Assembly (NCBI GenBank): GCA_964523795.1
Contig: CAZGAO010000017.1
Span: 15 to 64,014, forward strand
DNA from: an uncultured Lentimicrobiaceae bacterium
GTDB lineage: Bacteria > Bacteroidota > Bacteroidia > Bacteroidales > 4484-276
DNA: 64,000 nt
Direction of reading: 5' to 3'
Within the stretch, counting starts at the first letter, position 1. Every line of letters starts with the position of its first letter. The translations under genes and the position numbers were made by a program. Below are positions 5,167 through 60,823 of this stretch, piece after piece. The notes under the pieces were generated by a model, which ran no database searches, had not been told where the DNA came from, and worked only from the letters and a program-made list of their open reading frames with translations.

Positions 5167-5406
5167 ATGAAACCATTTGCCTGTAAATGCCTATTTCTGC
5201 TTCCCGTAATTTTATTCGTGGATTATTTAATTTTGGTTGCCTTTGGTGTGAGTTCGTGTTTTTTTGGCGCGGGCGAAGCCATGTACTGCAAGGCTTACCT
5301 GCCGATAGCCCTGATGCTGGTCGGCGCATCGCTGGTATTTTTTATGGGCATTATCGCACGCAAGAATAAAAAGGAGATGTGCGAAACCGAGGATAATGCC
5401 GGCTAA
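5167..5406 (+). CDS. small hydrophobic membrane protein (79 aa), hypothetical
   Basis: Two predicted TM helices; divergent from the FNR-like gene; followed by a strong terminator. No homology recognised. Confidence 0.4.
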   Translation: MKPFACKCLFLLPVILFVDYLILVAFGVSSCFFGAGEAMYCKAYLPIALMLVGASLVFFMGIIARKNKKEMCETEDNAG

Positions 5407-5441
5407 TATTTTTTATCGAGCATTTTTACCTCAAATAGTAA

Positions 5442-5480
5442 AACCCGGATAAGAGTAACTCTTATTCCGGGTTTTTTTTA
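5442..5480 (+). terminator. rho-independent terminator
   Basis: Hairpin aacccggataagag / ctcttattccgggtt followed by a T8 run. Confidence 0.65.
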
Positions 5481-5485
5481 TTTTT

Positions 5486-5672
5486 CAAAAACATCAAACA
5501 TCGGACATCAAAAAACACCAGGGTTGCTATCCCCTTTGTTAGTGAGCCTGCCGAACTGCGGGGCTGCAATCCCTTGCCATTCAATCTAACATCTAAAATC
5601 TAACATCAACATCTGAAATCGGACCCCGATGGTCGGGGCAGGCTATCGGACATCTGAAATCGGACATCAAAC
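5486..5672. repeat. short-period degenerate tandem block (acatc / ggacatc words) with 16-nt direct repeat
   Basis: acatctgaaatcggac occurs at 5609-5624 and 5650-5665, flanking the hairpin ccccga-tgg-tcgggg (5624-5638). The same catcggacatcggacatc word recurs at 26187-26208. Confidence 0.7.
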
Positions 5673-5710
5673 CGGTTTCACCGATTTCGATAATAATATT
5701 GCACAACACG

Positions 5711-5834
5711 AGAAACTTATCATCAACAAAAAACCTTAGTAGAAAATCCAAGCCAGATAAACACCAACCTTATTTCTATCATGATGAAAAAATAAGGTTG
5801 ATTTTTTCCGTGGAATCATTTTTCTACTAAGTTT
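5711..5834 (-). repeat. nested double-hairpin element, copy 1 (ncRNA, MITE or IS-end candidate)
   Basis: Outer stem cttagtagaaaa (5735-5746) / ttttctactaag (5820-5831). Inner stem aaccttattt / aaataaggtt. Conserved tail agaaacttatcatcaacaaaaaacc. A second copy lies in inverted orientation at 29127-29265. Confidence 0.7.
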
Positions 5835-5857
5835 CTGTTCAATAATTAACGATACAT

Positions 5858-6013
5858 TTAAGTTTGAATGCTATAGTTCCAATCCCCTCTAAATATATCT
5901 GGTTTTAATTTTATACTATTTATTTCTTCGTCACTGATTTTTAATCCTTTTTCATATTGCCTTTTATCAGCAATAGCATTCACTTTTAACCGCCATTGGA
6001 ACGGTATCATAAA
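5858..6013 (-). pseudogene. ISAzo13-like transposase, C-terminal fragment only (~51 codons)
   Basis: Minus-strand translation MIPFQWRLKVNAIADKRQYEKGLKISDEEINSIKLKPDIFRGDWNYSIQT* matches the conserved C-terminus of ISAzo13-family transposases (G.K.SD.E...L....FHG.WNY.I). An upstream in-frame stop lies at 6014-6016. Confidence 0.6.
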
Positions 6014-6017
6014 TTAG

Positions 6018-6188
6018 GTAGACTATAAAATCGGTAACGGAATCCTTGAAGGTTTTAATTCAATCTTCCAGGCAGCTAAAGCAAAAGCCAGGGGCTACAA
6101 AAAAACGCAAACAATCAAAACTATCATTTATATACTTACCGCTAATCTCCAATTTCAAAAACTTAATAAATACTATTTACCCACTTAA
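6018..6188 (+). pseudogene. ISL3-like transposase, C-terminal fragment only (~55 codons)
   Basis: Plus-strand translation IGNGILEGFNSIFQAAKAKARGYKKTQTIKTIIYILTANLQFQKLNKYYLPT* carries the (S/T)N..xEGxNxxxxxxKxxxRGY motif of ISL3-type transposase C-termini. There is no N-terminal part. Confidence 0.5.
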
Positions 6189-6392
6189 TTTTGTAAAGAG
6201 CCTTAGTTTTCTTCTACCAATAAGGCTTTTCGGTATTGCCCCGTTTTTTTAGTGGTTTCTGGACTCCACATTTTATTGAAAGTATCTGCTGGAAGCTTAT
6301 CTATAATAAGTACTTTTTCCGGAGGCTTCACCTTTCCGTATCAAGACAGGTTACCACAAATAGTGTGTGTCAATAAATTTGAAAAAGTTTTT

Positions 6393-6425
6393 AGTCATAG
6401 CATGGCTTTGAGCCATACCATGATT
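6393..6425. repeat. palindromic element agtcatagcatggct-N3-agccataccatgatt
   Basis: Imperfect inverted repeat. A better copy is at 33613-33645. Confidence 0.55.
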
Positions 6426-6524
6426 TTGATGACCTGACAAACGCTAACCATGGCAATGAGTTAAAGAAAAATAATTTTCTTTGCAAGCGATATGCACAAA
6501 AATTCATAACCAAATTTTTAGAAA

Positions 6525-7556
6525 ATGAAAAAAATGTTTCTCCTGTTACTCGCTGCTTCCTTGTTTTCTGTAGGAAGCTTTGCACAAGAAATTGATAATT
6601 CGGATCGCACCAACAATTTTTACGACAACGAAGAATTGCACCCCCTAAAAACCGGGACTATCGAAATTGCCGGCGAAATTACTAATCCCGGTATCATCGA
6701 CCTCGCATCGCTGCCTGTGCGCTCGCTGATTGTGAAAGAAGCCCTGCCCACCGCCGAAGGCAACAGCTTTGTGGGTGCCTACCGCTATGATGGATATTCG
6801 CTTTTCGACATTATTAACCTGCATACTCCTGACAAAAAAAATCAGGATGTCTTCCCGCCTATCATCGACCTGTATGCCGAAATTGAGAATGAGCAAGGTG
6901 AAAAGGTGATTTTTAGCTGGGGCGAAATTTATTATCCAAACCATCTGCACGAGATTATCATCGCCACCAAAGTGATGCGCATCGTGCCCTCGAAAACCAA
7001 AGAACTGTGGCCACTGCCCACCGATTCAAAAATTGTTGCCGGCCACGATTTGCTTACTTCGCGCAATATCTCTAATCCAACAAAAATCACCATCAAGAGT
7101 GCAAGCCGCGAATTTGCTATCGAAAAAGGGATGAACCCGATGCATGCTCCGGCGGTGGATGTTTTTGTAAACGATAGCAAAACGCTGACCCTGACCAAAT
7201 CGGCCAAAAACATTGATGATGCCAGCTACGAGGCCATCTTTTACGGACGTGGCCGCGGCATACACAGCACCACGCCCTTTGAAGGACAAATGCTAAAAGA
7301 GGTACTTGCAGATCAAATTCCGTTTACGGCGCAGAATATCAAGGAGGCCTATCTTATCGTTGTTGCCAGGGATGGCTACCGGGGCGTATTTACTTACTCG
7401 GAGATATTCAACAGAAACGACCAAAGCGAAGTACTGCTCATTTACGATCCCAAAGCTGAAACTGGTGGCGCATTCCGGCTATTCCCGGCCAGTGATTTCT
7501 TTTCTGACCGCGCCATAAAATCTACCAACCGGATTTACTTTGAACAATTAGATTAA
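6525..7556 (+). CDS. hypothetical secreted protein, first gene of the ABC importer operon
   Basis: Signal peptide MKKMFLLLLAASLFSVGSFAQ. Lies 4 nt upstream of the permease gene. Two internally similar halves (YRYDGYSLFDIINL / ARDGYRGVFTYSEIF). It does not look like a classical periplasmic binding protein. Confidence 0.6.
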   Translation: MKKMFLLLLAASLFSVGSFAQEIDNSDRTNNFYDNEELHPLKTGTIEIAGEITNPGIIDLASLPVRSLIVKEALPTAEGNSFVGAYRYDGYSLFDIINLHTPDKKNQDVFPPIIDLYAEIENEQGEKVIFSWGEIYYPNHLHEIIIATKVMRIVPSKTKELWPLPTDSKIVAGHDLLTSRNISNPTKITIKSASREFAIEKGMNPMHAPAVDVFVNDSKTLTLTKSAKNIDDASYEAIFYGRGRGIHSTTPFEGQMLKEVLADQIPFTAQNIKEAYLIVVARDGYRGVFTYSEIFNRNDQSEVLLIYDPKAETGGAFRLFPASDFFSDRAIKSTNRIYFEQLD

Positions 7557-8355: not shown

Positions 8356-9388
8356 TATCCAAAATATCCACACCCGGCTCGACAGCTTTGAACTGGACAT
8401 TGCAGAACTAAGCATTGATAAAGGCGAGTATTTTGTTCTGGCAGGACCCTCGGGTTCTGGCAAAACAATCCTGCTCGAATTGATTGCCGGCATTTATAAA
8501 ACCCGCCCGCCCGGAAAAATTCTTCTTGATGGCAAAGACATTACGCATCACAAAATGCAGGACAGAAAGGTGGGGATGGTTTTTCAGGATAATACGCTAT
8601 TTCCACATCTTTCAGTTCTGAAAAATATCGAGTTTGCGTTCAAACATAAAAATCAGGAGCGTGCTAAAATTGTTGAGCGTCTGGCAGGCCAATTCCGATT
8701 GCACGACTTATTAGCCCGGGATCCCAAAACCCTTTCGGGCGGAGAGATACAACGTGTTGTCCTGGCTCGCACCCTGGCCTCCAATCCCGACATCCTGCTG
8801 CTTGACGAACCCCTCTCGGCCATCGACACCAGCCAGAAAGACCAATTGAAAATCCTGCTCAGGCAATTGAACCGCCAGGGACAAACCATCATCCACGTTA
8901 CGCACGACTTTGAGGAAGCCTACACGCTGGCGACAAAAATGGGCATTATGCACCAGGGCAAAATTGTGAGCACCGGCAGTCCGCAATCTATCTATCAAAA
9001 TCCTAAAAATAATTTTGTGGCTCGCTTTTGCGGATACAAAAATTATTTTGAAGCCCAAACTGCCGACAACAAAAAGCTGTGTATTGGTAAAAATATTTGC
9101 CTTGAACTCAGGGGAGATATTGCCCCAAACTCGAATTGCAAACTACTTATTGATGAAAGAAAAATTGAATTTATAGCTCAGACAGCAAAATCCCAACAGA
9201 TAAACACTTTTGATGGAATTGTAGAGGATGCCTACAATGCCCTGCCGGGGATTGAATATCGAATAGACATTGGGATTCAGGTTATCGTTTGGGAAAATTC
9301 AGGGACAATATCAAGACCAAAATACCACCCGAAAGATCGGGTACAAATACATTTCCCGGATGATTCGCTTCGGATAATTATGGGATGA
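8348..9388 (+). CDS. ABC transporter ATP-binding protein with C-terminal TOBE-like extension
   Basis: Walker A GPSGSGKT, signature LSGGEIQRV and Walker B ILLLDEP. About 110 aa of extra C-terminal sequence, as in ModC/WtpC-type ATPases. Confidence 0.85.
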   Translation: MLNIQNIHTRLDSFELDIAELSIDKGEYFVLAGPSGSGKTILLELIAGIYKTRPPGKILLDGKDITHHKMQDRKVGMVFQDNTLFPHLSVLKNIEFAFKHKNQERAKIVERLAGQFRLHDLLARDPKTLSGGEIQRVVLARTLASNPDILLLDEPLSAIDTSQKDQLKILLRQLNRQGQTIIHVTHDFEEAYTLATKMGIMHQGKIVSTGSPQSIYQNPKNNFVARFCGYKNYFEAQTADNKKLCIGKNICLELRGDIAPNSNCKLLIDERKIEFIAQTAKSQQINTFDGIVEDAYNALPGIEYRIDIGIQVIVWENSGTISRPKYHPKDRVQIHFPDDSLRIIMG

Positions 9389-14014: not shown

Positions 14015-14178
14015 AATTTGTGGTATTAATAAATGAGTGATTCGACAAAAAAATAGTGGATGCAAAAATAGTTAATTTGTGTTAAGAAGGGTGTTTTGTT
14101 ATTCGTTATCCGTTATCCGTGAGTTGATATCTGTGAATTGTTATCCGTGATTCGTGAATTATTGTGATGTAACGCAGC

Positions 14179-14264
14179 CAGAGACGCGCAAAAAATATTA
14201 GAAAGTTAACAGAGACGCGCAAAAAATATTAGAAAGTTAACAGAGACGCGCAAATTGCGCGTCT
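14179..14264. repeat. 31-bp tandem repeat (2.4 copies) ending in a 21-nt palindrome
   Basis: cagagacgcgcaaaaaatattagaaagttaa at 14179-14209 and 14210-14240, with a partial third copy running into agacgcgcaaattgcgcgtct (14244-14264). Confidence 0.85.
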
Positions 14265-14333
14265 GTACAAGCTATCCACTTGTTTGGCTCTATCTATAAA
14301 TTGATCGTTTTTATACATCAGGATTTCATTTTT

Positions 14334-14431
14334 CGATATTCGATATTCGATATTCGATATTCGATATTCGATATTCGATATTCGGTATTCAATATTCGGC
14401 ATTTAATATTCGGTATTCAATATTCAGTATT
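14334..14431. repeat. 7-bp microsatellite (cgatatt) x7 perfect plus ~7 degenerate copies
   Basis: Read directly from the sequence: cgatatt repeats at 14334-14382, then cggtatt, caatatt, cggcatt, taatatt, cggtatt, caatatt, cagtatt. Confidence 0.9.
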
Positions 14432-14452
14432 TAATTTCAAATAAATCATTTT

Positions 14453-14480
14453 GTACAGACGCGATGCATCGCGTCTGTAC
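14453..14480. repeat. perfect 28-bp palindrome gtacagacgcgatgcatcgcgtctgtac
   Basis: Perfect inverted repeat. It shares the cagacgc core with the 14179 repeats and the 60.6-kb array. Confidence 0.9.
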
Positions 14481-26186: not shown

Positions 26187-26610
26187 ATCGGACATCGGAC
26201 ATCTAACGTTTCCATATCTTCGTTCATCCGACCTTCATTTAACTTCCATATTCAAGATTCGGCATTCTCCGGTTCAATATTCAAAAAATCTCAATTCATG
26301 ATTTAGTTTTAAAAACCAGGGTTGCCATCCACACACCTTGCCTCCCACAAGAGCCATCACAAAGGCGGGGCTGTGAACCCTTGCATCAGGGTTCGCAGCC
26401 CCGAAGAGCCTGCTCCGCTCCAGCGGAGGGATTGCATTCATAAATTGCCGCAGCCATAGGTAATTCACGAAGTGACTATTTCCGTAGCCCGGTGCTTTAG
26501 CTCCGGGATTAAGGGAAATTGGCACAATCGGCAAAAGGGCGTTAACGCCCTTATAGTTAATTTGCGGGAGAATCCATTACCCCGGCCATTTATGGCCGGG
26601 GTAATGGATT
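26187..26610. repeat. hairpin- and repeat-dense intergenic segment (REP-like modules)
   Basis: Contains catcggacatcggacatc (26187-26208); hairpin ggggctgtgaaccc / gggttcgcagcccc (26367-26402); module aggtaattcacgaagtgacta (26458-26478); 18-bp palindrome aagggcgttaacgccctt (26535-26552); and a perfect 19-bp stem with 2-nt loop, aatccattaccccggccat-tt-atggccggggtaatggatt (26571-26610). Confidence 0.8.
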
Positions 26611-28980: not shown

Positions 28981-29091
28981 ATTCACGGGGTAACTGAACT
29001 CAGATTGCAAGTCACCCCGTGAATCCTTACTAAGCACAAAGCATGATTTTATACTACGCACTACTGCTAAAGGTAATTCACGGGGTGACTA
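28981..29091. repeat. attcacggggt-type hairpin plus a third direct copy
   Basis: attcacggggtaact (28981-28995) / agtcaccccgtgaat (29010-29024). aggtaattcacggggtgacta at 29071-29091 matches 26458-26478 with 2 differences. Confidence 0.75.
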
Positions 29092-29126
29092 AACTCGTGG
29101 CAAAAACAACTATATTTTCCATTTTC

Positions 29127-29265
29127 AAACCTTCATTAAAAAATGTTCTTACGACTTAAAATAACCTTACCTTATTTTTTATTTTAGAAAAGAATAAGGT
29201 AAGGTTATGTAGTGCGTTGGGCTTGGATTTTCTATGAAGGTTTTTTGGTGATGATAAGGTTTCTA
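29127..29265 (+). repeat. nested double-hairpin element, copy 2
   Basis: Outer stem aaaccttcat (29127-29136) / atgaaggttt (29234-29243). Inner perfect 16-bp stem ataaccttaccttatt / aataaggtaaggttat (29161-29208). Tail ggcttggattttctatgaaggttttttggtgatgataaggtttct matches the reverse complement of 5711-5755. Confidence 0.75.
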
Positions 29266-29329
29266 TTTTTAAGGATAGAAAGTTGAGGCCTACCACTGCC
29301 TTTCGAGCGTCCGCAGGGCCTCGAAACGT

Positions 29330-32833: not shown

Positions 32834-33523
32834 TTAGTTAAGCTTTGCGGCAAGCTGAATGGTCAATCCAATTTCATCGTTGATAAATTTATCTTTGAGG
32901 TCATCAAAGAAAGAGCGCGAGCCGTATTGAATATTCCACTGGGCACGGTCAATAAAAAATTGATTGGTGTTTGCCTTAATCCAGTCATCCATCACCGCAA
33001 CTTTTGCATTAAAGCTGATGCTTTTGGTGATGTCTTTCATGGTTAGATTTCCGGTGATGGTGTGTGTGGGAATGATATCTCCCTTTTCCTTAGTCTTATC
33101 AATCGCTGAGGCATCAACGGCTTGAACATCGGTAATTACAAATTTGGCCTTAGGGAAGGTAGCGACATCAAAAAAGTCGGCTGAATTGAGGTGGCCGGTC
33201 AGCTTTCCGTTTTGATCGGCATCCTCGATGTCGGTAACCACAATCGTTTTCATGTCGATGTTAAAGCTACCGCCGATAAGCTGACCGTCTCTGGTTTCCA
33301 GTTTACCATTGTTAATTTGGATGGTTCCATCGTGCGTTCCGGTGGGTTTGTATCCCTCCCAACGGATGGTGCTGGTCTTGGTATCGGCCAGGTATGCCTG
33401 GTCGAAACTACCGGTTTTTACTTCTTTGGCATCGGTGGCCTTTGTTTTTTCGCCGCCCGAGGTGCAAGCCGTGGCAAAGGCCAGGGCTACAAAGGCTATT
33501 AATAATACTGCTTGATTCTTCAT
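32834..33523 (-). CDS. YceI family lipoprotein
   Basis: Lipobox FATAC. STIRWEGYKPTGTHDGTI, GGSFNIDMKTI, LTGHLNSADFFDVATFPKAKF and HTITGNLTMKDITKSISF are the YceI pattern. Confidence 0.8.
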   Translation of the reverse strand: MKNQAVLLIAFVALAFATACTSGGEKTKATDAKEVKTGSFDQAYLADTKTSTIRWEGYKPTGTHDGTIQINNGKLETRDGQLIGGSFNIDMKTIVVTDIEDADQNGKLTGHLNSADFFDVATFPKAKFVITDVQAVDASAIDKTKEKGDIIPTHTITGNLTMKDITKSISFNAKVAVMDDWIKANTNQFFIDRAQWNIQYGSRSFFDDLKDKFINDEIGLTIQLAAKLN

Positions 33524-33612
33524 GTTTATAGATATTTGTTTAAATGTACCACCATAACTTTAAACAGCGCGACTTGTTCAGGTACAAACATTAAAAATTC
33601 TTAACGAGCCAA

Positions 33613-33645
33613 AGTCATAGTATGGCTCCAAGCCATGCTATGACT
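33613..33645. repeat. palindromic element agtcatagtatggct-ccaa-agccatgctatgact
   Basis: 15-bp arms with one mismatch, in a divergent promoter region. Same family as 6393-6425. Confidence 0.7.
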
Positions 33646-38251: not shown

Positions 38252-38792
38252 ACGTCAGGCTAAACTTTTCAACTTTTTTTATTTCAGCACAATTCGCAAC
38301 AAAATATTGTTTACCTTTGGCAAACCAAATTAATGAGCACAAAGCGAATGAGGAATACTTTTATCACATTGGCCAATTACATGCTCCGTGGAAATTTCCC
38401 GGTAAGCCTGCGTTTTAAGAAAGCTTGCGGAGCGAGTTGCGGGAGATTATTGGGTAAGGAGTGGTGGATATCAAGAAATACTCGCGTACATTCGCCAAAA
38501 GATTTACGGGATTTGGTAAAGCATTCGATGATGATTTTTTTAATGATGGATAAGCGATGTTAACATACATCTCCAAAACGTGAGGAATATGTTAAACAAG
38601 AATGAAAAGCATAGAAGAAATATAATCACCTGTTAACATACACAATCGTTAGAGCCAATGCAAAGAAAAAAGACGAACAGACAGATTTTGAGACAACGAC
38701 ATACTTTGACTTAGGCTTGACATATTTTTGAAATTTTAAAATAGGGAAGCCGAAAACTAACCAGAGTAGGCGAAAAAATAAAAATTAATAAT

Positions 38793-39095
38793 ATGGCAAT
38801 TTCAGATGTACAAGACAAAGGTAGTTGGTACTACATTTTTGACAGCAATGGAAAAAAAACAGCAACCCTTGCATCTTCAACTGGGGATTTAATGGGAATA
38901 GGAAGTGACTTTATAGTTCTTCAGAAAGGTAGTTGGTATTACACTTATGATGAGAGCGGAAAGAAAATTGGTACGCTTGCAAGTTCATCAGGGGATTTTA
39001 AGAATGCAGCAGGAAACTCTTTTAATTTGAAAAAAGGTAGTTGGATTTATACATATGATAAATCCTGCAAAAAAACAGGAACAAGAGCAGCATAG
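38793..39095 (+). CDS. hypothetical 100-aa protein made of 2.6 tandem 36-aa repeats (KGSWYYxxDxxGKKxxTLASSxGD)
   Basis: 108-nt DNA period with repeat starts at 38817, 38925 and 39033. No signal peptide. The GSWYY.FD.NGKK motif is reminiscent of cell-wall/choline-binding beta-hairpin repeats. Confidence 0.6.
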   Translation: MAISDVQDKGSWYYIFDSNGKKTATLASSTGDLMGIGSDFIVLQKGSWYYTYDESGKKIGTLASSSGDFKNAAGNSFNLKKGSWIYTYDKSCKKTGTRAA

Positions 39096-39100
39096 ACAAG

Positions 39101-39131: not shown

Positions 39132-39158
39132 TTTAAAATTTAATAATTGGCAACAAAT

Positions 39159-40850
39159 ATGGAAGCATCAACAACCGTAAATAAAATGTTAGCAGGGAAT
39201 AAGATATTTGTTCCTACTTATCAACGAGCTTATTCTTGGGATACAGAATTTGACAAAAGTAAAACACCAAAACAAGTAAATGTATTTTTGACTGATTTAG
39301 AAGATTACAATAAAAGTTCAGCTATAACATCCTATTATTTTGGTCATTTTCTGTTTGAAGAAAAATCAGAAAGCAATTTTGGAGTTATTGACGGACAGCA
39401 ACGATTAACAACGATTGTTATTTTTCTTTCTACCTTATTTTCAAAATTAAAATCAATTCGACTATTAACTGAAAACGAAGAAGTGCTTTTTGAAAATATG
39501 ATTAAGCGTAAATCAAATTACATTTTTTCAACTGTTGATTATGACAATCAGTTGTTTAAAGACTATGTAGTTGAGCAAACCAAAAAAAATAAAAATGGAT
39601 TGGAAACTGAATCAGCGAAACGAATAGTTAATGCTTTCGACTTCTTTACAAAAGCCTTATCCGACAAGGACGAAGTTTATTTGTCTAAAATGCTAAAAAC
39701 AGTAAATGAAGCATCTTGCTCAACACATCCAGTTAAAAATGAATCCGAAGCAATTCAAATGTTCATTTTTCAAAACAATCGTGGAAAGAAGCCCTCAAAC
39801 TTAGAAATTATAAAAGCTCAGTTTATGTTTAATGTTCATCTTTACGGTGGAGATGAAAAAGACAGCTTAATTGATGAAATAAAAAATAGATTTGAAAAAA
39901 TATATAAATCAATTTCGTCTATCGAATACAAAATTAACGAAGATGATGTTTTGGTTTACACTTTGAGAGTTCATTTCAACTCACTTTGGGAATCAAATGC
40001 AATAGACAAAATCAATAAACTTTTATCGGAAAACAATCCAATTCCTTTTATCAAATCATTTACAAATTCGCTTGCAATTAGCTTTGAACATTTAACTACA
40101 TTTTTCGGAAAGGACGAAAGAGAAAATATTGAAATTCATTCCCTTATAACATTAGGTGGTTTTGCAATAGCAATTCCATTTGTAATTAAAGCTTATACTT
40201 TCGGACTTCAAACAAATGAAATATGTAAGATTTGTTCGACAATGGAAGCGTTAGTTTTACGTCATAGACTTATTGGAACAAGGGCAGAAATGACATCAAG
40301 AATTAATGGCATTTTTCAAGAATTTAATGCAGAACATCCTGATACAAAACCAATAATTGACAGAATTGAATGGATGAAAACGACAACTGATTGGTGGTGG
40401 GCATATTGGAATAAATCACATTTAGAAGAATCAATACAAGGTGGATTAAATCATTCAATTGCAAAATTCTTACTATGGAAATATGAAAATTATCTTGAAA
40501 GTAATGGACAGTCAGGTTATATTTTAAAAAGATTTGACAACATAGAAAGTCCTGAATTAGAACATATTGCTCCATCAACTGAACCAGTCCTTAAACCTCA
40601 CGGATATGGAGAATATAATGATGAATTTAGAAATGAATACCTTAATTGCTTAGGGAACTATTTGCTTTTATCAAAATCACATAATTGTTCTGCAAGTAAT
40701 AATACTTTTCCTATTAAAAGAAAGGACTATACCTATCTTGCTCAACAAAGAGAAATCAGTGATATGACAAAAGAAACAGAGATTTGGGATAAGGAAAAAA
40801 TTAGTTTTCGGAAACAAAAAATAGTGAAATTTATACTTGAAAACTTATAG
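39159..40850 (+). CDS. DUF262 + DUF1524 protein (GmrSD-like, candidate modification-dependent nuclease)
   Basis: N-terminal FVPTYQRAYSW and IDGQQRLTTIVIFL (DUF262 / ParB-like NTPase). C-terminal ELEHIAPS ... LGNYLLLSKSHNCSASNN (DUF1524 His-Me finger). The ATG at 39159 is preferred over the TTG at 39147. The segment is AT-rich. Confidence 0.8.
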   Translation: MEASTTVNKMLAGNKIFVPTYQRAYSWDTEFDKSKTPKQVNVFLTDLEDYNKSSAITSYYFGHFLFEEKSESNFGVIDGQQRLTTIVIFLSTLFSKLKSIRLLTENEEVLFENMIKRKSNYIFSTVDYDNQLFKDYVVEQTKKNKNGLETESAKRIVNAFDFFTKALSDKDEVYLSKMLKTVNEASCSTHPVKNESEAIQMFIFQNNRGKKPSNLEIIKAQFMFNVHLYGGDEKDSLIDEIKNRFEKIYKSISSIEYKINEDDVLVYTLRVHFNSLWESNAIDKINKLLSENNPIPFIKSFTNSLAISFEHLTTFFGKDERENIEIHSLITLGGFAIAIPFVIKAYTFGLQTNEICKICSTMEALVLRHRLIGTRAEMTSRINGIFQEFNAEHPDTKPIIDRIEWMKTTTDWWWAYWNKSHLEESIQGGLNHSIAKFLLWKYENYLESNGQSGYILKRFDNIESPELEHIAPSTEPVLKPHGYGEYNDEFRNEYLNCLGNYLLLSKSHNCSASNNTFPIKRKDYTYLAQQREISDMTKETEIWDKEKISFRKQKIVKFILENL

Positions 40851-47116: not shown

Positions 47117-48352
47117 ATGAACGATAAGGATCATGCGCTTGCCGGGGAAGCTGCAACCAGCATAAGTGAAACGATAAAGCAAAACGCCATCACGAATAAT
47201 GGTGATGGAAATGTTGTTATGCAGGACATTACTGCCCGTGATATAACCATCAACATTGCCAGTGGTTTGCCGCCGGAGGTGAAGCAAAAAAAAGAAGAAC
47301 TTAAAGCAAGGGTTCAAAGCCTGGCAGATAATCTAAGCGTCCTCAAGGAGCAAATAGCACCTGCTGAAATCCCTGCAGATTTCGAGCCGCCCAGCGACCC
47401 TGCATATTCAAAAATTAAATGGCGTAAGCTTCTGCAAGCCTTGCAGCATAAAGGCTGTATTTTGTTTGTAGGCCCCGAAATAGCCATTAACGAACAGGGC
47501 AATTCGCTGCATCGCGAGTTTTATAAGGTGCTGACCGAGGACTTTGACGACATCGAATACCTGGAGCAGGAAGGTTTCTTCACTCCCGAATCCGATGAGG
47601 AAATTCTTTACGATGTGCTCGAATATTACTCCAAAGATTTTCCAACCCAAAACAAAATCGGGCGCAAGCTCTTGGAGCAGTTTGCACAAATTCCTTTCGA
47701 TCTGATCCTTTCGCTTTGCCCTGACGATACCATGCGTCGTATTTTTGAAGACTACGACCTGGAGCATCGCTTTCTGTTTTACGATGGCTCGAAGCAGGAA
47801 ATCGATGCCGCCGAAAACACAACGGTGATTTATAATGTGCTGGGCAATGCTGCCGACAATGGGCGATATATTTTTACGCACGAACAGTTTTATCAGTACC
47901 TCAACAAAATTATTATTCCCTCGGCTATCAAAAAGAAGATACAGGATGCCAGCCACTTTTTGTTTATCGGTTTCGATTTTGATAAATGGTACAATCGCTT
48001 GCTGCTTTTCATCCTCGATTTTGAGCAGAAGAGAAGCGGCGGCCATCGCCTGATTGTGGGCAACAAAAAGATAAAAGAAGATATCGAGAAATTTATCGAG
48101 AAGCAGTTCAACATCACTTTTGTGGATAACGAGTACTCCCAATTTATCGAATGGCTTTCGCTGAATGCAGCGCAGGAAGGACTTTTGCGAAATCTGAACC
48201 AGGTTTTTGTGCAGAATAATTTCAGGGCCTTGAAGTATATAAGCATCCGTGTAACCGATGATGATAAACTGGAAGATTTGCTGAAGATGGAAGAACTGAC
48301 CACTGCTATTGATCAAAAAATAGAACAATTCAAAAAACGAATACAAAACTAA
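47117..48352 (+). CDS. SIR2_2-like domain protein with divergent catalytic positions
   Basis: Colinear with the SIR2_2 layout: CILFVGPEIA (GAG loop), PFDLILSLCPDD (in place of iiTTNYD), IYNVLGN...RYIFTHEQFYQYL (in place of klHG...lvlTeedY), HFLFIGFDFDKW (in place of llfiGySlsD). N-terminal AITNNGDGNVVMQDITARDITIN motif. Confidence 0.55.
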   Translation: MNDKDHALAGEAATSISETIKQNAITNNGDGNVVMQDITARDITINIASGLPPEVKQKKEELKARVQSLADNLSVLKEQIAPAEIPADFEPPSDPAYSKIKWRKLLQALQHKGCILFVGPEIAINEQGNSLHREFYKVLTEDFDDIEYLEQEGFFTPESDEEILYDVLEYYSKDFPTQNKIGRKLLEQFAQIPFDLILSLCPDDTMRRIFEDYDLEHRFLFYDGSKQEIDAAENTTVIYNVLGNAADNGRYIFTHEQFYQYLNKIIIPSAIKKKIQDASHFLFIGFDFDKWYNRLLLFILDFEQKRSGGHRLIVGNKKIKEDIEKFIEKQFNITFVDNEYSQFIEWLSLNAAQEGLLRNLNQVFVQNNFRALKYISIRVTDDDKLEDLLKMEELTTAIDQKIEQFKKRIQN

Positions 48353-48353
48353 A

Positions 48354-50528
48354 ATGGGCATCCGACGATATCCGGGGGCAACGCCCTTTAGCAGCGATCA
48401 GGCCAGGATTTTTTATGGCCGCGACAGCGACATCCAAAAGATGCTCACCCTGATACAGGTGGAAAAAAAAGTTTTGCTTTACTCCAAATCGGGGCTGGGC
48501 AAAACCTCCCTCCTCGAGGCGGGCGTTATTCCAAAGCTGCCCATAAATTATATGCCCGTCAGCATTCGTCTTTTTGCCAGCACCAAAGATGCCGTTTCGC
48601 CGGTGGCCAGCGTGCGCCAGGCTTTGAAAAAAGTAATCGATGGTCTGGACAAACTCCCTGATACGCTCCTGGATCAACTGAAAGCGGATGACCAAAAAGA
48701 CAGCTCGTTGTGGTATCTTTTCAAAAAGTTGCAATTGGCCGGCTTGGACAAAAATGAAGAGGGTAAGCAGATAATATACCTGCTGGTTTTTGATCAGTTT
48801 GAAGAGCTTTTTTCCTATTCTCCTGCCCAGATTCTGGATTTCAAAAACCAACTTTACGAACTTACCGAGCAAAGGGTGCCCGACCGTTTTGCCGCACAAA
48901 TTGCTGCTGCACGGCGCAACAATAAAGAACTTTTTACGCGCGAAGCCCTGGCCACACTTCATCAGCGCATGGACATTAAAACGGTGTTCGCCATCCGCTC
49001 CGACCGTTTGAGTTTGCTCAACCAGCTCTCGGACAAAATTACCGACATCCAGCAGGTGTATCACGAAATAAAACCCCTGAGCAATACGCAGGCCATCGAG
49101 GCGGTGGTAAAACCTGCCGCAGACAAGGATACGGTTTTTGAAACCCGACCCTATACTTTTCATTCCGATGCGTTGGCTGCCATTATTCACAATCTTTCTA
49201 TCGATGAGAACGCTGCCGAAAAGTCGCAGAAGCCCATCGAAACCACACAGCTACAAATTGTATGTCATCGCATCGAGGAAGTTGCAGAGGCAAAATATCT
49301 AAAATTAGCAAATGCAAAGGCCGATACGGTAATCGAGATTGCAGAGAAGGATTTACCCAGTTTTTCAAATATCTTTTTGGATTTTTATAACGATTCTATC
49401 CAAAAGATCGAGGAGGGCAGTCGGGCTAATGCCAAACGCCTGATTGAAGATGAGCTGATACGAAGCAATCAAAGAATTTCGCTCGACGAGAATATTTGCA
49501 AAGATTTTATCAATGCTGACCAGCTTAAAAAACTTGTTGACACCCACCTGCTTCGTGCCGAGCGCAACAGTTTCGAGCGATTTAGCTTTGAGTTATGCCA
49601 CGACACGCTGGTAAATCCGATTCTGGAATCGCGCAAGCAATTTAAGGCCGAAGAACAAGAAAGGGTGCGTGAACTAAAGCGCAGAGCCGATTTGGAGGCA
49701 TTGAAGAAAAAACAGAAAGAAGAAAGACTGGCGCAGGAGGTTGAGATGAAACGCCTGAGAGAAGAGCAAGAACGCAAGGATAAAGAAAGGGTGCGCAAGC
49801 TGCGACAACAACGGATAATCACCGGCATCGTTGCATTTTTTCTACTGGTCTCACTTGGGCTGGGATATTGGGGTTACATTAATTTTTGTGAAGCCTCGGA
49901 GCAGCGCGACATCGCTCTTTTAAAAGAACAGGATGCACAGGGAAATCTGATCAATTTCATGGATGCCCAATATGATAATTATTTCGAGAATGCCCAAGGT
50001 GCCACCAAAGATGCAGATTATACGCTTGCAATTCAAAACTACTATGAGGCAATACCGTGGATTCACGCAAATATTGTTAGTGCCGTTGATACCGGAAGCG
50101 ACTGCAATATTTTTACTGTATTGTTTTCGTCTCAAGCCGAAGAAAATTATCTGAAGGAGCACAGCAAAATCTACCGCGCGCAAGAGGAATTAGCTATCAG
50201 CGATAGCTTGAGCAAAATGTTGGCGGTGATCGATGGTATAAAGTTTTGCGAGCGAAAAGCCTCCAAAAAAGCCACCATCGATAGCTTGCACAGGCAGGCA
50301 AACAGCTATATGCGAAAGCGCAATTATATAAAGGCACTCCAACTCTTCCGTGAGGCCTATCGCGAAGACGACAATATGCCGGGAAGCAAGCAAAAATTTA
50401 TTGATGCCAAAAAAGAAGCGGTGCGGATGTACGAAAAAAGCATGGATGATTACCGGGAAATTGGCGATCAGGCTGAATGGGAAAGAGCCGAAGACTTATT
50501 AGATCAGGTAAATTTGATACGATTGTAG
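48354..50528 (+). CDS. nSTAND-type (novel STAND) P-loop NTPase with coiled coil, one TM helix and a C-terminal helical-repeat domain
   Basis: RYPGATPFSSDQARIFYGRDSDIQKM...LLYSKSGLGKTSLLEAGVIPKL (nSTAND1-like N-terminus plus Walker A). LLVFDQFEELF (Walker B). Charged coiled coil KQFKAEEQERVRELKRRADLEALKKKQKEERL.... TM helix IITGIVAFFLLVSLGLGYWGYINF. TPR-like tail. Confidence 0.7.
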   Translation: MGIRRYPGATPFSSDQARIFYGRDSDIQKMLTLIQVEKKVLLYSKSGLGKTSLLEAGVIPKLPINYMPVSIRLFASTKDAVSPVASVRQALKKVIDGLDKLPDTLLDQLKADDQKDSSLWYLFKKLQLAGLDKNEEGKQIIYLLVFDQFEELFSYSPAQILDFKNQLYELTEQRVPDRFAAQIAAARRNNKELFTREALATLHQRMDIKTVFAIRSDRLSLLNQLSDKITDIQQVYHEIKPLSNTQAIEAVVKPAADKDTVFETRPYTFHSDALAAIIHNLSIDENAAEKSQKPIETTQLQIVCHRIEEVAEAKYLKLANAKADTVIEIAEKDLPSFSNIFLDFYNDSIQKIEEGSRANAKRLIEDELIRSNQRISLDENICKDFINADQLKKLVDTHLLRAERNSFERFSFELCHDTLVNPILESRKQFKAEEQERVRELKRRADLEALKKKQKEERLAQEVEMKRLREEQERKDKERVRKLRQQRIITGIVAFFLLVSLGLGYWGYINFCEASEQRDIALLKEQDAQGNLINFMDAQYDNYFENAQGATKDADYTLAIQNYYEAIPWIHANIVSAVDTGSDCNIFTVLFSSQAEENYLKEHSKIYRAQEELAISDSLSKMLAVIDGIKFCERKASKKATIDSLHRQANSYMRKRNYIKALQLFREAYREDDNMPGSKQKFIDAKKEAVRMYEKSMDDYREIGDQAEWERAEDLLDQVNLIRL

Positions 50529-50532
50529 CATT

Positions 50533-53500
50533 ATGAAAAAGATATTTATCATAGTATTTCTGCTTGGGATCACATTTTCGTTGCTTGCGCAGGAAAGCGA
50601 TTTTAAGCGGAATTTCGACAAGGCAAAGGTTCTTTTCGCAAGCGAAACGCCGAATTACATCAAGGCTTTTCAGTATTTCGACAAGGCCTACGACTGGGCT
50701 GTCAGCACAAGCGAAGAAGATTTGGCCATGGAATGGAAAAACAAATGCCGCGTAGCCATCCAAAAGCAACAAGCCAAATTGGAAATTACTATCGGGCAAA
50801 ACCAGGATATCATCGGAGCCTTTTATTTTTACGACAAAAAATTTGCCCTGGCCTTTAAGGATAACAAATACGGCTTTATCGATACCCTGGGACAGGCGGT
50901 AATTGGCTACAAATACGACGAGGGGCGACCCTTTGACAACTATGGCCTGGCTCGCGTAAAACGCAATAATCAATATTTTTTGCTCGACACCGCCAAAACC
51001 GAATATTTGCTTGCCGATGGTTTTAATCGCCTGGTGGCCGAAACGCAGGCACTCGACCTGAGCAATAAGCAGCTCAGCGAATTGCCCGAGCTGGTGCTAA
51101 AAATTCATGGATTGAATATCCTCATGCTGAGCGGGAATTTTATCCACCAAATACCTGAAGATATTGCATTGCTTGCGCAAATGAAGATGCTGATTTTGAA
51201 TAATAATTTATTGCGCCATTTACCCGATAGCATCGGGAAACTGCAAAATCTAATAGTGCTCGATGTAAGCGATAATCGTCTGGATTCACTGCCAGCTTCG
51301 ATGGGTGAATTGAGCGGTATGCGCAATTTTTATATGTCCAACAATTTTATAAGTCATGTCCCTTCCGGGATTCAAAATATGAGGCAGCTTACCAATCTCG
51401 ACCTAAGCAACAATCAAATTCGCACGCTGCCCACAGCATTGGGGCAACTCGAAGATTTGAAAACTTTGAAAGTAAATAATAATATACTCGAAGATGTTCC
51501 TGATATTGTTTTTAGCTTTACTGCTATTGAATATCTCGACCTGAGCGGGAATGCGATTAAAAATTTGCCTCCGGCAATCGAAAGGCTTGATGATTTGCTT
51601 AGCCTGGATATTAGCGGAAACAGTATCGAAAGCCTGCCCTCCGAAATCAGAAAGCTGGATCATCTGCAGGTATTATCTTTTGCTGGAAACCAGATAAGTG
51701 ATATCCCACCGCAGATTGGCGAACTTGATCAATTGAAAATACTGGATGCTTCTGAAAACGCCATCGGGGATTTACCCGATTCTTTTGAAAACCTGGATAA
51801 CTTAACGATGCTCGATTTGGGTGGCAACCGATTACAAGCGTTTCCTGATCACCTATTAAAAATCAAAGATTTAAAAATTTTAAAACTAAACAACAACAAT
51901 ATCCCAATTATTCCCAGCCAAATTCATCAGCTAAAAAAACTAAATACTTTTGATATTAGTCATAACAATCTTCGCATTGTTGCTCCTCAAATCGATTCGC
52001 TTACCCATCTTACCCGGCTCTTTTTGAATAATAATAAAATCGAACAACTGCCTGCCGGAATTAGCCAACTACTTTTGCTGGATGAACTGGATGTAAGCTA
52101 TAATAATCTTTCGGCCTTGCCTGCCGATTTTGATAATCTGGAGTACTTGCAGTGGCTAAATCTGAGTAATAACAAGTTTAGCCAATTTCCACCCGTGTTA
52201 ACAAATCTTTATGCTTTAAGCGATCTTGATATTTCCAACAATCAACTCACAAGCCTTGATGCGCAAATCGACCGAATGACCCGGTTAACGAAACTCAATG
52301 TTTCGGTAAATCAACTAAAAGAATTGCCCGCCAATATTGGAGGGCTGCATCACCTAAGGCATCTCAACGTTTCGGATAATCAGCTTAGCACATTACCACA
52401 GGATTTGGGAAAACTGAAAAAGCTGACTTATTTAAAACTAAATAATAATCAACTCGACACACTTCCTCTTGCCCTCTTTAATCTTGACGCATTAAGCACC
52501 TTGGTTGCCAGCAATAATCAAATCAGCACGCTGCTCAAACGCTTACCACACCTGACTAATCTTAGCCATATAGATTTACGCAACAACGCACTGGACACAA
52601 TCCCACGCGGATGGGCTTTGCTACCCAAATTGCAAGTGCTGGATCTGCGTGGCAATCCCAATCTAGATCTCAATACGCTGATACACGCTTTTAGCCTGTC
52701 AAGCAGGAAAATTATTATTTCGGCAGGCAAAAACGATTACAGTACACTGGTGGATGAAAACATTACACTGATAAAAATTGACCCACCGGCTTCGCTTCCT
52801 GCTAAATTGTATAAATTGAATAATTTGCTCCTGCTCGACATTCAGGGAGCCGAAGGCATAACTGTAGATAATATTTTGAATATTACCGAAAAGCAACGCA
52901 ACAAATTTGTTTATGCCAGCTCGGCCTTTCCTGATTTGAGCGACCGCAACAAGACGGTGATAAATATGGATGCAAGTCTTTTTTTGAAAATGCGACGAAA
53001 TACCCAAGTTCAAAACAATGAACTGGACTTATCCGGGGAAGCATTGGTAGATATTTCTTTTCCGTCAGCAACATTCAAAGATCTGGAACGCCTGAATTTA
53101 AGCAATACTGCGCTAAGAAAACTTCCTAACGACCTCTGGAAATTTAAAAACCTACGCTACCTTGATCTAAGCAAAAATGAACTCTCGGGCATCCTGCCTG
53201 GCGAAATTAAAAGCCTAAGCAGCTTGCACAGCCTGGATATCAGCGGCAATAATTTTTCAGACCTTCCATCTGAAATAGAGGATTTATCTCAGCTTAACAG
53301 TCTGCTGGCCAACAACAATAATTTTACACTGCTTCCGCAAACCATCGGCAATCTGCACAATCTAAAGTATTTAGTTTTGGATGACAATCCACTGGCTGCT
53401 CTTCCCGATTCGCTGGCCGCATTGAAAAACCTCAGCTATCTCAGCCTTAATATCGATAGCCTGACTATGATTCCCGATGACTTTGCAATCCTGGCAAACA

Positions 53501-58790: not shown

Positions 58791-58798
58791 AAACGAGG

Positions 58799-60528: not shown

Positions 60529-60823
60529 GAACGCACATTCGTGTACCTCTACTTCCCATCAATCCGATACTCGTGTTTCAATCATTCTGTCAATACAATG
60601 CTCCTAACCTTGTAAACCTGGCAGGTTACCTCCCCATCATTGCATCCTTTCATCACTCCATCAGACGCACGTCCGTGCGCCTCTACTTCCCATCACTCCA
60701 TCAGACGCACGTCCGTGCGCCTCTACTTCCCATCACTCCATCAGACGCACGTCCGTGCGCCTCTACTTCCCATCACTCCAATTCTCCTGTTTCAATCATT
60801 CTGTCATTACAATGCTTCTAAAC
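60529..60823. repeat. composite repeat: 40-bp tandem array (3.25 copies) bracketed by a 42-nt direct repeat
   Basis: catcactccatcagacgcacgtccgtgcgcctctacttcc at 60651-60690, 60691-60730 and 60731-60770, plus a partial copy. A degenerate copy lies at 60529-60566. The 42-nt module atactcgtgtttcaatcattctgtcaatacaatgctcctaac (60567-60608) recurs at 60781-60823. Confidence 0.9.

What the first reader, a model, noticed from the sequence alone, without database searches (positions are those of the whole stretch)
5711..5834. ~120-nt nested double-hairpin element present twice (second copy 29127-29265, opposite strand) with compensatory changes in both stems
Both copies share an outer stem, an inner stem and a conserved ~45-nt tail (ggcttggattttcta..aaggttttttg.tgatgataag.tttct, about 40/45 identical). 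The outer stem differs by two adjacent base pairs changed on both arms: copy 1 cttAGtag/ctaCTaag versus copy 2 cttCAt/aTGaag. The inner stem of copy 2 carries a 5-nt insertion on both arms (aaccttACCTTatt / aatAAGGTaaggtt), so pairing is preserved. Such covariation indicates selection on the structure. That fits a structured small RNA, a recombinase or transposase recognition hairpin, or a MITE with maintained inverted repeats. Copy 1 lies immediately 3' of the ISAzo13-like transposase fragment, so an IS-end origin is possible.
Basis: seen in the sequence. Interest (0 to 1): 0.65.

Follow-up and report, generated by a model that had tools for sequence, protein, structure and literature searches.

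The report
Lineage-specific intergenic hairpin repeat family
The two look-alike hairpin sequences are real, but they belong to a small, old family of palindromic repeats scattered between the genes of one uncultured Bacteroidota bacterium; nothing shows that an RNA structure is being selected, and they are not the end of the neighbouring transposase remnant.

Summary
Both copies exist as described: window 5710-5834 (+) and 29127-29277 (-). Each folds into a long three-helix hairpin (z = -6.35). One strand carries a T-run and a conserved tail after the hairpin.

Three more full copies and two half copies were found in other contigs of the same organism. None turned up in about 90 kb from its closest relatives, GTDB species representatives, IMG/VR, plasmids, phages or Rfam.

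With five copies the covariation claim fails:
- The two "compensated" outer-stem pairs are mismatched in 3 of 5 copies.
- Pairing (91%) and covariation score do not exceed column shuffles.
- G·U-compatible mismatches are equal on both strands (6 vs 6).

The ISAzo13 link is an adjacency. A second copy of that IS shares sequence only up to ...TTGAACA, and its flank shows no module A (nhmmer). So the IS ends at window 5836 and abuts the hairpin.

The element always lies in swollen intergenic spacers, mixed with other hairpin and low-complexity repeat modules. It is co-directional with flanking genes in 4 of 5 copies in one orientation and in 1 of 5 in the other. Copies are 70-77% identical.

Best reading: an old, non-autonomous MITE/REPIN-like palindromic repeat inside BIME-like mosaics. 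It is a new member of a known kind, of low interest. Target-site duplications and a mobilising enzyme were not found.

The parts
5710..5834 (+). Module A, copy 1 (F orientation). It comprises a tail (5710-5729), the outer-stem arms (5730-5747 and 5818-5834) and the inner-stem arms (5767-5776 and 5790-5799). Its inner stem is the short form, lacking 5 nt on each arm.
   Evidence: covariance-model hit of 116 bits
29127..29277 (-). Module A, copy 2 (F orientation on the minus strand). It comprises an extended tail TATCCTTAAAAATAGAAACCTTATCATCACC (29277-29247), the outer-stem arms (29246-29227 and 29144-29127) and the inner-stem arms (29206-29193 and 29176-29163).
   Evidence: 135.6 bits
29009..29126 (-). 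Linker (AAAATGGAAAATA..GTTGTTTTTGCCACGA) followed by module B. Module B is an ~82-nt hairpin, GTCACCCCGTGAAT..ATTCACGGGGTGAC. It is joined to module A in 3 of 5 copies, but it is an independent repeat that also occurs alone elsewhere.
28981..28996 (-). A single extra arm of module B (AGTTACCCCGTGAAT), that is, a truncated second B copy.
5836..5998 (-). 3' fragment of an ISAzo13-family IS: the last ~50 codons plus 24 nt. Its right end ...TTATTGAACA abuts module A with one base between. It is not part of module A.
5470..5709 (.). Other repeat modules beside copy 1: ATCGGACATC-type low-complexity repeats and a GGGTTGCTATCC..GCTGCAATCCC hairpin (module C-like). Both are shared with L004 and with window 26230-26440.
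26232..26570 (-). A second mosaic of the same repeat modules (C, low-complexity, a B-like arm at 26449-26488, and a ~110-nt module also present in L020). It fills the 710-nt peptidase-argB spacer, which is 137 nt in a relative (L011).

Best explanation
Module A is a member of a small, old family of non-coding interspersed palindromic DNA repeats. It resembles a MITE or REPIN in architecture and is confined to one uncultured Bacteroidota (probably Bacteroidales) lineage.

The unit is an inverted duplication giving a long hairpin of 125-175 nt. It has an outer stem of ~15 bp, a weak middle helix, an inner stem of 10-15 bp and an A/T-rich variable loop. On one side sits an asymmetric conserved tail of 20-45 nt.

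Copies sit only between genes, usually fused with other hairpin and low-complexity repeat modules. Together these form BIME-like mosaics that have inflated the intergenic spacers of this genome.

Shown here: multi-copy status, lineage restriction, intergenic mosaic context, absence of coding capacity, absence of covariation beyond background, independence from the ISAzo13 fragment.

Inferred:
- The copies arose by DNA-level spread, either transposition in trans by an unidentified enzyme or recombination and segmental duplication, in a burst after the split from the sampled relatives.
- The family is now decaying.
- The few matched changes on both arms (the paired 5-nt deletion and one C-G to G-C flip) come from palindrome-templated repair or slippage in the ACCTT/AAGGT tandem repeat, not from selection on an RNA.

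If a copy is transcribed on the strand that carries the T-run, it would act as a large stem-loop followed by U6. That would be a by-product terminator or stabiliser, as is known for other bacterial MITEs and REPs.
For: 1. Copy number and spread.
- There are five full copies at five different loci: window x2, L002/L018, L003/L020 and L004.
- There are also two half copies (tail plus 5' arm only): L004 1470-1540 and L020 8887-8960.
- The metagenome loci come from the same organism or population as the window. They recur in the same ENA sample (ERZ27316330) and the same Logan run (SRR8526173).

2. Absence elsewhere.
- No copy was found in 90 kb around the peptidase S9 orthologue of relatives at 77-85% amino-acid identity (L010-L017).
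- The GTDB species representatives gave only one chance match.
- IMG/VR, plasmids and phages gave nothing. Rfam gave nothing.

3. Context.
- All copies lie in long intergenic spacers (about 1.1-1.2 kb in the window) alongside other repeats shared between loci.
- The peptidase-argB spacer is 710 nt here and 137 nt in L011 and L012.

4. Structure without selection.
- 91% of cells are paired, against at most 56% in slid registers. This is no better than shuffles, in which 165 of 500 reach the observed pairing and 156 of 500 the observed covariation score.
- The RNAalifold covariation term is +3.14.
- G·U-compatible mismatches number 6 on each strand, and 8 mismatches are incompatible on both.
- The arm variants assort freely: AG/CA on the 5' arm with CT/TG/TT on the 3' arm.

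5. Orientation relative to flanking genes is mixed. F is co-directional in four copies and R in one.

6. All pairwise identities are 70-77% with many indels, including a 26-nt hairpin inserted in one arm (L003). The copies are old and equidistant.

7. The size (125-175 bp), the 15-18 bp inverted-repeat ends and the lack of coding capacity fit the published structural definition of bacterial MITEs (PMC3733652, Background).
Against: - No target-site duplication could be defined. The flanks of the palindrome are themselves conserved (tail on one side, linker on the other) or are other repeats.
- No autonomous partner element or RAYT/IS200-like gene was seen in about 107 kb of this organism. The rest of the genome could not be searched.
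- Copy number looks low. Only 3 exact cores were found in metagenome Ga0307929, plus 2 in the window. That is unlike classical REP/REPIN families, which have hundreds of copies.
- There are no near-identical copies, so no direct sign of recent mobility. At least the L003/L020 copies lie in a tandem array of paralogous genes and may have spread by segmental duplication.
- Conservation is uneven. Between the two copies found without ascertainment bias, the 5' arm block is 22/24 identical while its pairing partner is 10/16. Uniform neutral decay does not predict this, so a sequence-specific constraint such as a protein site or an RNA is possible.
- The T-run after the outer stem is kept in 4 of 5 copies.
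Confidence: 0.6

Rival explanations
1. A lineage-specific structured RNA. On the strand that carries the T-run (window minus strand for copy 1, plus strand for copy 2), the element would be the 3' domain and intrinsic terminator of a small RNA. In three loci this RNA would begin with the module B hairpin, giving about 270-300 nt. Alternatively it is a 3'-UTR stabiliser or terminator module.
For: - The folds are very stable (z about -6 in three copies).
- The outer stem is followed by T6 in 4 of 5 copies and TTTTATT in the fifth.
- The B-linker-A composite is kept as a unit at three loci.
- In L003/L020 this orientation follows a co-directional gene.
- There is one C-G to G-C flip and one paired 5-nt indel in the inner stem. 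Module B shows 8 pairs with changes on both sides.
Against: - Covariation is no higher than in shuffles, and the alifold covariation term is unfavourable.
- G·U-compatible mismatches are equal on both strands.
- In 4 of 5 copies the T-run strand is antisense to the flanking genes.
- Conservation continues 20-45 nt past the T-run, where such an RNA would already have ended.
- The enclosed stem-loop is 110-150 nt, so it is not canonical terminator geometry and was not flagged by the terminator scan.
- By eye, no consistent Bacteroidetes-type promoter lies upstream.
- There is no Rfam match, and the element is absent from relatives.
Confidence: 0.15
2. A sequence-specific protein recognition module that uses the conserved tail plus 5' arm (CTTATCATCA.CAAAAAACCTT..TAGAAAATCCAAGCCCAACGCAC) presented on or beside a hairpin. 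Examples would be the substrate of a single-strand (HUH/RAYT-like) transposase or another recombinase, or a nucleoid or regulatory protein site.
For: - One arm and the tail are much better conserved than the partner arm: 22/24 against 10/16 between the two unbiased copies.
- Half copies consisting of just the tail plus 5' arm exist.
- The hairpin-plus-flank layout resembles the ends recognised by IS200/IS605 and RAYT enzymes (own knowledge; PMC3733652 and PMC6006769 for the class).
Against: - No such enzyme gene lies in the window or the fetched loci.
- The GTAG or CGTC tag of REPs is not consistently present: AGTAG in 2 of 5 5' arms and CATAG in 3.
- The block's invariance in three copies was imposed by my search pattern.
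- With only two unbiased copies, the unevenness is not significant after allowing for the choice of window.
Confidence: 0.12
3. The terminus (right end, terminator or inverted repeat) of an ISAzo13-family insertion sequence. Solo copies would be what remains after the IS was deleted.
For: - Copy 1 lies 1 nt from the 3' end of an ISAzo13 transposase fragment, in the orientation transposase, then hairpin, then T-run.
- The first 18 nt beyond the shared IS end are 11/18 identical between L009 and the window.
Against: - L009 is a second copy of the same IS (86% amino-acid identity). It matches the window closely (about 88% by my count of the alignment) up to ...TTATTGAACA. After that the similarity falls away and no hairpin or module A is found.
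- The other four full copies and both half copies have no transposase remnant.
- The IS end (TGTTCAATAATTAACG...) bears no resemblance to either end of module A.
Confidence: 0.03

Closest known systems
Bacterial MITEs that fold into long hairpins: ERIC/IRU in enterobacteria, NEMIS/Correia in Neisseria, RUP in S. pneumoniae (class as summarised in PMC3733652)
   Same: The size falls within 70-300 bp. It has no coding capacity and 15-18 bp inverted-repeat ends that form the base of one long imperfect hairpin. It is intergenic, dispersed in several copies and species-restricted. It could act as an RNA stem-loop if transcribed.
   Different: No target-site duplication or cognate IS was identified. 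A conserved asymmetric tail lies outside the inverted repeat. Copy number looks low and all copies are 23-30% diverged.
REP / REPIN elements with RAYT transposases, and BIME mosaics of E. coli (PMC3733652; Bertels & Rainey 2011 from own knowledge)
   Same: It is an inverted doublet forming a hairpin, with half units also present. It is embedded in mosaics with other short repeat modules. An IS is inserted at its edge, and REPs are known IS targets (PMC3733652). There are occasional matched changes on both arms.
   Different: There is no consistent GTAG or CGTC tag. The arms are about 50 nt rather than 20-40 nt. There are a handful of copies rather than hundreds. No RAYT gene was seen in the sequence available.
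BOX elements of S. pneumoniae (modular boxA-boxB-boxC repeats; own knowledge)
   Same: It has a modular composite architecture. The tail, A, linker and B modules are joined in three loci, while the modules also occur alone or in another order (B before A in L004).
   Different: The sequences and the phylum are unrelated. BOX modules have a fixed order, whereas here the order varies.
ISAzo13-family insertion sequence ends
   Same: Only physical adjacency, in copy 1.
   Different: It is not contiguous with the IS in other copies of the element, and it is absent from the other copy of the IS (L009).

Membership tests
MITE (DDE-transposase-mobilised miniature inverted-repeat element) | Short (70-300 bp) and non-coding | tested here: met
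   The element is 125-175 nt. Stops lie in or just upstream of the only shared open frame, and copies have no consistent start codon.
MITE (DDE-transposase-mobilised miniature inverted-repeat element) | Terminal inverted repeats of 15-30 bp | tested here: inconclusive
   The outer stem is a 15-18 bp inverted repeat. However, conserved sequence (the tail) extends 20-45 nt beyond it on one side, so it may not be terminal.
MITE (DDE-transposase-mobilised miniature inverted-repeat element) | Target-site duplication flanking each copy | tested here: inconclusive
   The flanks were compared by eye in five copies. Only A-tracts are shared, and the true boundaries are masked by neighbouring repeat modules.
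MITE (DDE-transposase-mobilised miniature inverted-repeat element) | Ends resemble those of an autonomous IS in the same genome | tested here: not met
   The only IS end available, ISAzo13 TGTTCAATAATTAACG, is unrelated to either end of the element.
MITE (DDE-transposase-mobilised miniature inverted-repeat element) | Multiple dispersed copies, variable between related genomes | tested here: met
   There are five full and two half copies in about 107 kb of this organism, and none in 90 kb of relatives.
REP/REPIN-RAYT | GTAG (or CGTC) tetranucleotide tag at one end of each palindromic unit | tested here: not met
   The 5' arm reads AGTAG in 2 copies and CATAG in 3. No CGTC is present.
REP/REPIN-RAYT | Inverted doublets forming a hairpin, alongside singlets | tested here: met
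   Full palindromes are present together with two tail-plus-5'-arm half copies.
REP/REPIN-RAYT | A RAYT (Y1/HUH) gene flanked by the repeats | not testable with these tools
   None appears among the genes of the window or of L006, L018 and L020. The rest of the genome could not be fetched.
REP/REPIN-RAYT | High copy number (tens to hundreds per genome) | tested here: inconclusive
   An exact 20-nt core search found 3 copies in metagenome Ga0307929 and 2 in the window. Diverged copies and unassembled regions would have been missed.
ISAzo13 terminus | Present at the end of other copies of the same IS and contiguous with the transposase gene | tested here: not met
   L009 lacks it. Four of five full copies have no transposase remnant.
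Structured RNA family / intrinsic terminator | Match to a curated RNA family | tested here: not met
   Rfam 15 at gathering threshold and at E<=10 returned only generic hairpin noise.
Structured RNA family / intrinsic terminator | Covariation above background, with strand-specific tolerance of G·U | tested here: not met
   shuffles reach the observed values in 127-237 of 500 for four measures and 54 of 500 for further pair types; covariation term +3.14; 6 vs 6.
Structured RNA family / intrinsic terminator | Compact G+C-rich hairpin followed by a U-run, co-directional with an upstream gene | tested here: not met
   A U-run is present, but the stem-loop spans 110-150 nt, is A/T-rich and was not flagged. 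It is antisense to the flanking genes in 4 of 5 copies.
Integron attC site | R''(RYYYAAC)/R'(GTTRRRY) cores, in a cassette array next to intI | tested here: not met
   The cores are absent from both orientations by inspection. No integrase or cassette array is present.

The most novel reading that the evidence does not exclude
The nearly invariant tail plus 5' arm block, presented on a maintained hairpin, is a functional module and not decaying junk. It could be the substrate of a still-unseen hairpin-recognising (HUH-type or other) recombinase in Bacteroidota. Alternatively, it could be the conserved 3' domain of a lineage-specific multi-copy small RNA that ends at the T-run.
Probability: 0.12. 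Interest if true: 0.5.

Novelty: new member of a known kind. Interest (0 to 1): 0.2.

Why it matters
It matters mainly as a caution. Two copies of a palindromic repeat can show what look like compensatory changes without any selection on RNA structure, and three extra copies were enough to dissolve that signal.

It also documents an uncultured Bacteroidota lineage whose intergenic spacers are inflated, for example 710 nt against 137 nt, by mosaics of several hairpin and low-complexity repeat modules. This kind of repeat landscape is well described in Proteobacteria and Firmicutes but, to my knowledge, little described in Bacteroidota.

Practical consequences are modest. These modules break assemblies, as shown by the 525-534 nt contigs ending inside them. 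They attract spurious ORF calls. They may also be insertion targets for IS elements.

Tried and rejected
- Rfam scans of the whole window (gathering threshold) and of the copy-2 region (E<=10) gave no family. The only hits were generic miRNA-like hairpin noise.
- An exact-core DNA scan of GTDB representatives gave one chance hit that does not extend. IMG/VR gave nothing. blastn against plasmids and phages gave nothing.
- I tried to find more copies through spurious ORFs translated from the conserved block (alignment A4). Only 6 word-sharing candidates appeared and none scored.
- A homologue search with the 50-aa ISAzo13 fragment returned only itself and one 62-aa fragment. Even so, that fragment (L009) settled the IS-end question.
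- Two window proteins near the right edge are not on record, so the contig could not be extended. Going through the listing of cluster members ids worked.
- I at first read a 10-bp duplication (CAAAAAACCT) around the module C block in L004 as a target-site duplication. I rejected that as unsafe, because the upstream piece aligns as a truncated second A copy (tail plus diverged 5' arm).
- By eye, no consistent Bacteroidetes -33/-7 promoter motif (TTTG / TAnnTTTG) was found in either orientation across copies.
- The attC, DnaA-box and Fur-box resemblances of the tail are all too weak or inconsistent.
- A covariance-model search (R1) over 170 kb found no additional diverged copies.

Full report
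**Conventions.** F is the orientation that reads tail, then hairpin (window + strand for copy 1, - strand for copy 2). R is the reverse complement, which reads hairpin, then T-run, then tail.

**Observation.**
- Copy 1 is at 5710-5834 (+) and copy 2 at 29127-29277 (-).
- The shared 39-mer CTTATCATCAnCAAAAAACCTTnnTAGAAAATCCAAGCC occurs exactly twice, against 0.00 expected from shuffles.
- As single strands both fold into one long imperfect hairpin with three helices: an outer stem of ~15 bp, a weak middle helix and an inner stem of 10-15 bp.
- Fold energies are -42.9 and -44.7 kcal/mol, z = -6.35.
- In the R orientation the outer stem is followed by GGTTTTTTG and the tail TGATGATAAG(G)TTTCT.
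- The AG:CT versus CA:TG difference in the outer stem and the 5-nt difference on both arms of the inner stem are as described.

**More copies.**
- An exact scan for the 20-nt core found only one chance match among 185,579 GTDB species representatives.
- IMG/VR gave nothing.
- One JGI metagenome, Ga0307929, gave three further copies: L002, L003 and L004.
- These loci belong to the same organism or population as the window. The L003 locus recurs in ENA sample ERZ27316330, which also holds the window's contig. The L002 locus recurs in Logan run SRR8526173, which also holds the window's peptidase gene.
- nhmmer and a covariance model over 170 kb of held sequence found no further full copy.
- They did show two half copies, consisting of the tail plus 5' arm only: L004 ~1470-1540 and L020 ~8887-8960.
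- All pairwise identities among the five full copies are 70-77%, with many indels.

**Covariation test.** In the five-way alignment (A2) the two variable outer-stem positions come as AG or CA on the 5' arm and CT, TG or TT on the 3' arm. The combinations are:

| Copy | 5' arm : 3' arm | Pairing |
|---|---|---|
| Copy 1 | AG:CT | both pairs formed |
| Copy 2 | CA:TG | both pairs formed |
| L002 | CA:TT | one mismatch |
| L003 | AG:TG | one mismatch and one G·U |
| L004 | CA:CT | two mismatches |

- The arm variants therefore assort freely.
- The inner stem shows one C-G to G-C flip (L002) and the paired 5-nt deletion (copy 1).
- It also shows a mismatch and a wobble in L004 and a 26-nt hairpin inserted into one arm in L003.
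- RNAalifold gives a covariation term of +3.14, which is unfavourable.
- Counting pairs on a 34-pair structure gives 91.1% of cells paired. Slid registers give at most 56%, so the inverted repeat is real. Column shuffles give 90.3%, and 165 of 500 shuffles are at least as high.
- The covariation score is 0.091 against 0.078 (156 of 500).
- Mismatches that would be G·U on the F strand number 6. Those that would be G·U on the R strand also number 6. Eight are incompatible on both.
- In sum, the hairpin reflects inverted-repeat ancestry. There is no measurable selection for pairing and no strand-specific RNA signature.
- By established knowledge, matched changes in quasi-palindromes can arise from intrastrand template switching and from slippage. 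The 5-nt unit lies in a tandem ACCTTACCTT / AAGGTAAGGT repeat, which favours slippage. This explanation of the paired deletion is an inference.

**Relation to the ISAzo13 fragment.**
- ORF 5858-6010 (-) is the C-terminus of an ISAzo13 transposase (PF07592, E = 3.5e-7).
- A second, more complete pseudogene copy of the same IS was found on L009, at 86% amino-acid identity.
- L009 and the window align closely (about 88% by my count) from window ~5998 to 5836, ending ...AAATGTATCGTTAATTATTGAACA. The similarity then decays: 11/18 identical, then background. L009 has no hairpin and no module A hit.
- The IS therefore ends at window 5836, one base from the outer stem of module A. It was inserted beside the element.
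- REP-type palindromes are known IS targets (PMC3733652). With a single case here, targeting is only a suggestion.
- The same gap also holds an ISL3 transposase C-terminal fragment on the + strand (~5991-6185; PF01610, E = 8.7e-7). This spacer is an IS graveyard.

**Context.** Module A never stands alone in clean spacer.
- In copy 2, L002 and L003 it is joined through a conserved linker to module B. Module B is an ~85-nt hairpin with 14-16 bp perfect arms, GTCACCCCGTGAAT...ATTCACGGGGTGAC.
- Module B also occurs by itself at L002 3355-3446, L004 1616-1702, L020 8628-8725 and L020 15377-15551. There is an extra single arm at window 28981-28996 and a weak copy at window 26449-26488.
- Module B shows its own mix of compensated changes (C-G to A-T in L004) and uncompensated ones.
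- Further modules are shared between loci:
  - a nested hairpin GGGTTGC.ATCC...GGAT.GCAACCC;
  - a small hairpin CCTGCCTGACTGGCCAGGC, sitting at the same tail position in L003 and L020;
  - GATGTCC / GATATTC heptamer-like low-complexity tracts;
  - a ~110-nt block preceding B.
- The spacers holding them are about 1.1-1.2 kb in the window. The peptidase-argB spacer is 710 nt here against 137 nt in a relative with 81% identical peptidase.
- About 90 kb from relatives at 77-85% identity contains no A or B copy.
- The window is otherwise ordinary chromosome: arginine biosynthesis, glycogen synthase, T9SS cargo proteins and a small defence island. No integrase, RAYT or intact transposase is present.

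**Orientation and terminator question.**
- The F orientation is co-directional with the flanking genes in copy 1, copy 2, L002 and L004. The R orientation is co-directional only in L003/L020.
- The T-run is therefore on the antisense strand in four of five cases.
- The upstream genes in three of those cases carry their own compact terminator-like hairpin with a T-run. Copy 1's was flagged by the scan. Those of L002 and L004 were seen by eye.
- The simple terminator scan does not flag module A, because its stem-loop spans 110-150 nt.
- Conservation continues past the T-run into the tail. A terminated RNA would not explain that.

**Interpretation.** The best-supported reading (confidence about 0.6) is an old, non-autonomous, lineage-restricted palindromic DNA repeat.
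- It matches the published structural definition of a MITE: 70-300 bp, 15-30 bp inverted ends, non-coding (PMC3733652).
- It has REPIN-like doublet and singlet forms, and it sits inside BIME-like mosaics.
- Steps shown: multi-copy status, restriction to one lineage, intergenic mosaic context, no covariation above background, and independence from the IS.
- Steps inferred: spread by trans-mobilisation or recombination and segmental duplication (the L003/L020 copies lie in a tandem array of paralogous Porph_ging-family genes), followed by decay.
- Weak points: no target-site duplication, no partner enzyme, low apparent copy number, and uneven conservation.
- On the last point, the 5' arm is 22/24 identical between the two unbiased copies and the 3' arm is 10/16. 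Part of the block's invariance in L002-L004 was imposed by my search pattern.
- That unevenness and the kept T-run leave room for two rivals: a functional RNA (0.15) and a protein-recognition module (0.12). The IS-terminus idea is essentially excluded (0.03).

**Verdict.** The covariation inference and the IS-end suggestion are not supported. The element is a new member of a known kind of bacterial interspersed repeat. Interest is low (0.2).

Noticed in passing
window 6207-6274 (-): A full-length, high-scoring DUF805 RNA motif (Rfam RF03081, 75 bits against a gathering score of 51). No DUF805 gene lies downstream. What follows on that strand is an ISL3 fragment in antisense, an ISAzo13 fragment, and module A. 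This looks like an orphaned cis-regulatory motif. Alternatively, the motif may be associated with the ISL3 end, because it starts ~20 nt past the ISL3 fragment's stop codon.
   Followed up: partly
window ~5991-6185 (+): C-terminal fragment of an ISL3-family transposase (PF01610, E = 8.7e-7), back to back with the ISAzo13 fragment. The 5406-6525 spacer is an IS graveyard.
   Followed up: yes
window 6393-6428 and 33610-33645 (inverted); L020 ~8840-8880: A 36-nt palindromic motif, AGTCATAGCATGGCTTnGAGCCATACnATGA. It lies upstream of gene 6525 (+) and of the YceI-like gene 32834-33523 (-), and it also adjoins a half copy of module A in L020. It could be an operator-like site or another repeat module.
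   Followed up: no
window 14100-14480: The intergenic spacer holds a (GATATTC)n heptamer tandem array (~14330-14440), two 31-nt direct repeats CAGAGACGCGCAAAAAATATTAGAAAGTTAA, and GACGCG...CGCGTC hairpins. One of the hairpins is shared with L002 1122-1154.
   Followed up: partly
window 29006-29094 (-) and six other loci (alignment A7): Module B is a separate ~85-nt hairpin repeat family with 14-16 bp near-perfect arms. It is more numerous than module A: at least 8 copies in ~107 kb. L004 carries a compensated C-G to A-T change in its arms.
   Followed up: partly
window 60546-60821: Direct repeats of 50-62 nt (90-100% identical) in the spacer between genes 58799-60511 and 60818-63934.
   Followed up: no
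window 39147-40850, 47117-50528: Defence-type genes: a GmrSD-like restriction endonuclease, a SIR2_2-domain protein, and an adjacent nSTAND1 NTPase. Large unannotated ORFs follow at 50533-60511.
   Followed up: no
window 38785-39100 (+): A small ORF with three tandem repeats of the peptide GSWYY.(F/Y)D..GKK.(A/G)TLASS.GD in an otherwise empty 1-kb spacer.
   Followed up: no
L007 (534 nt), L008 (525 nt): Short metagenome contigs from sister samples end inside module A or the adjacent low-complexity repeats. These repeats break assemblies.
   Followed up: partly
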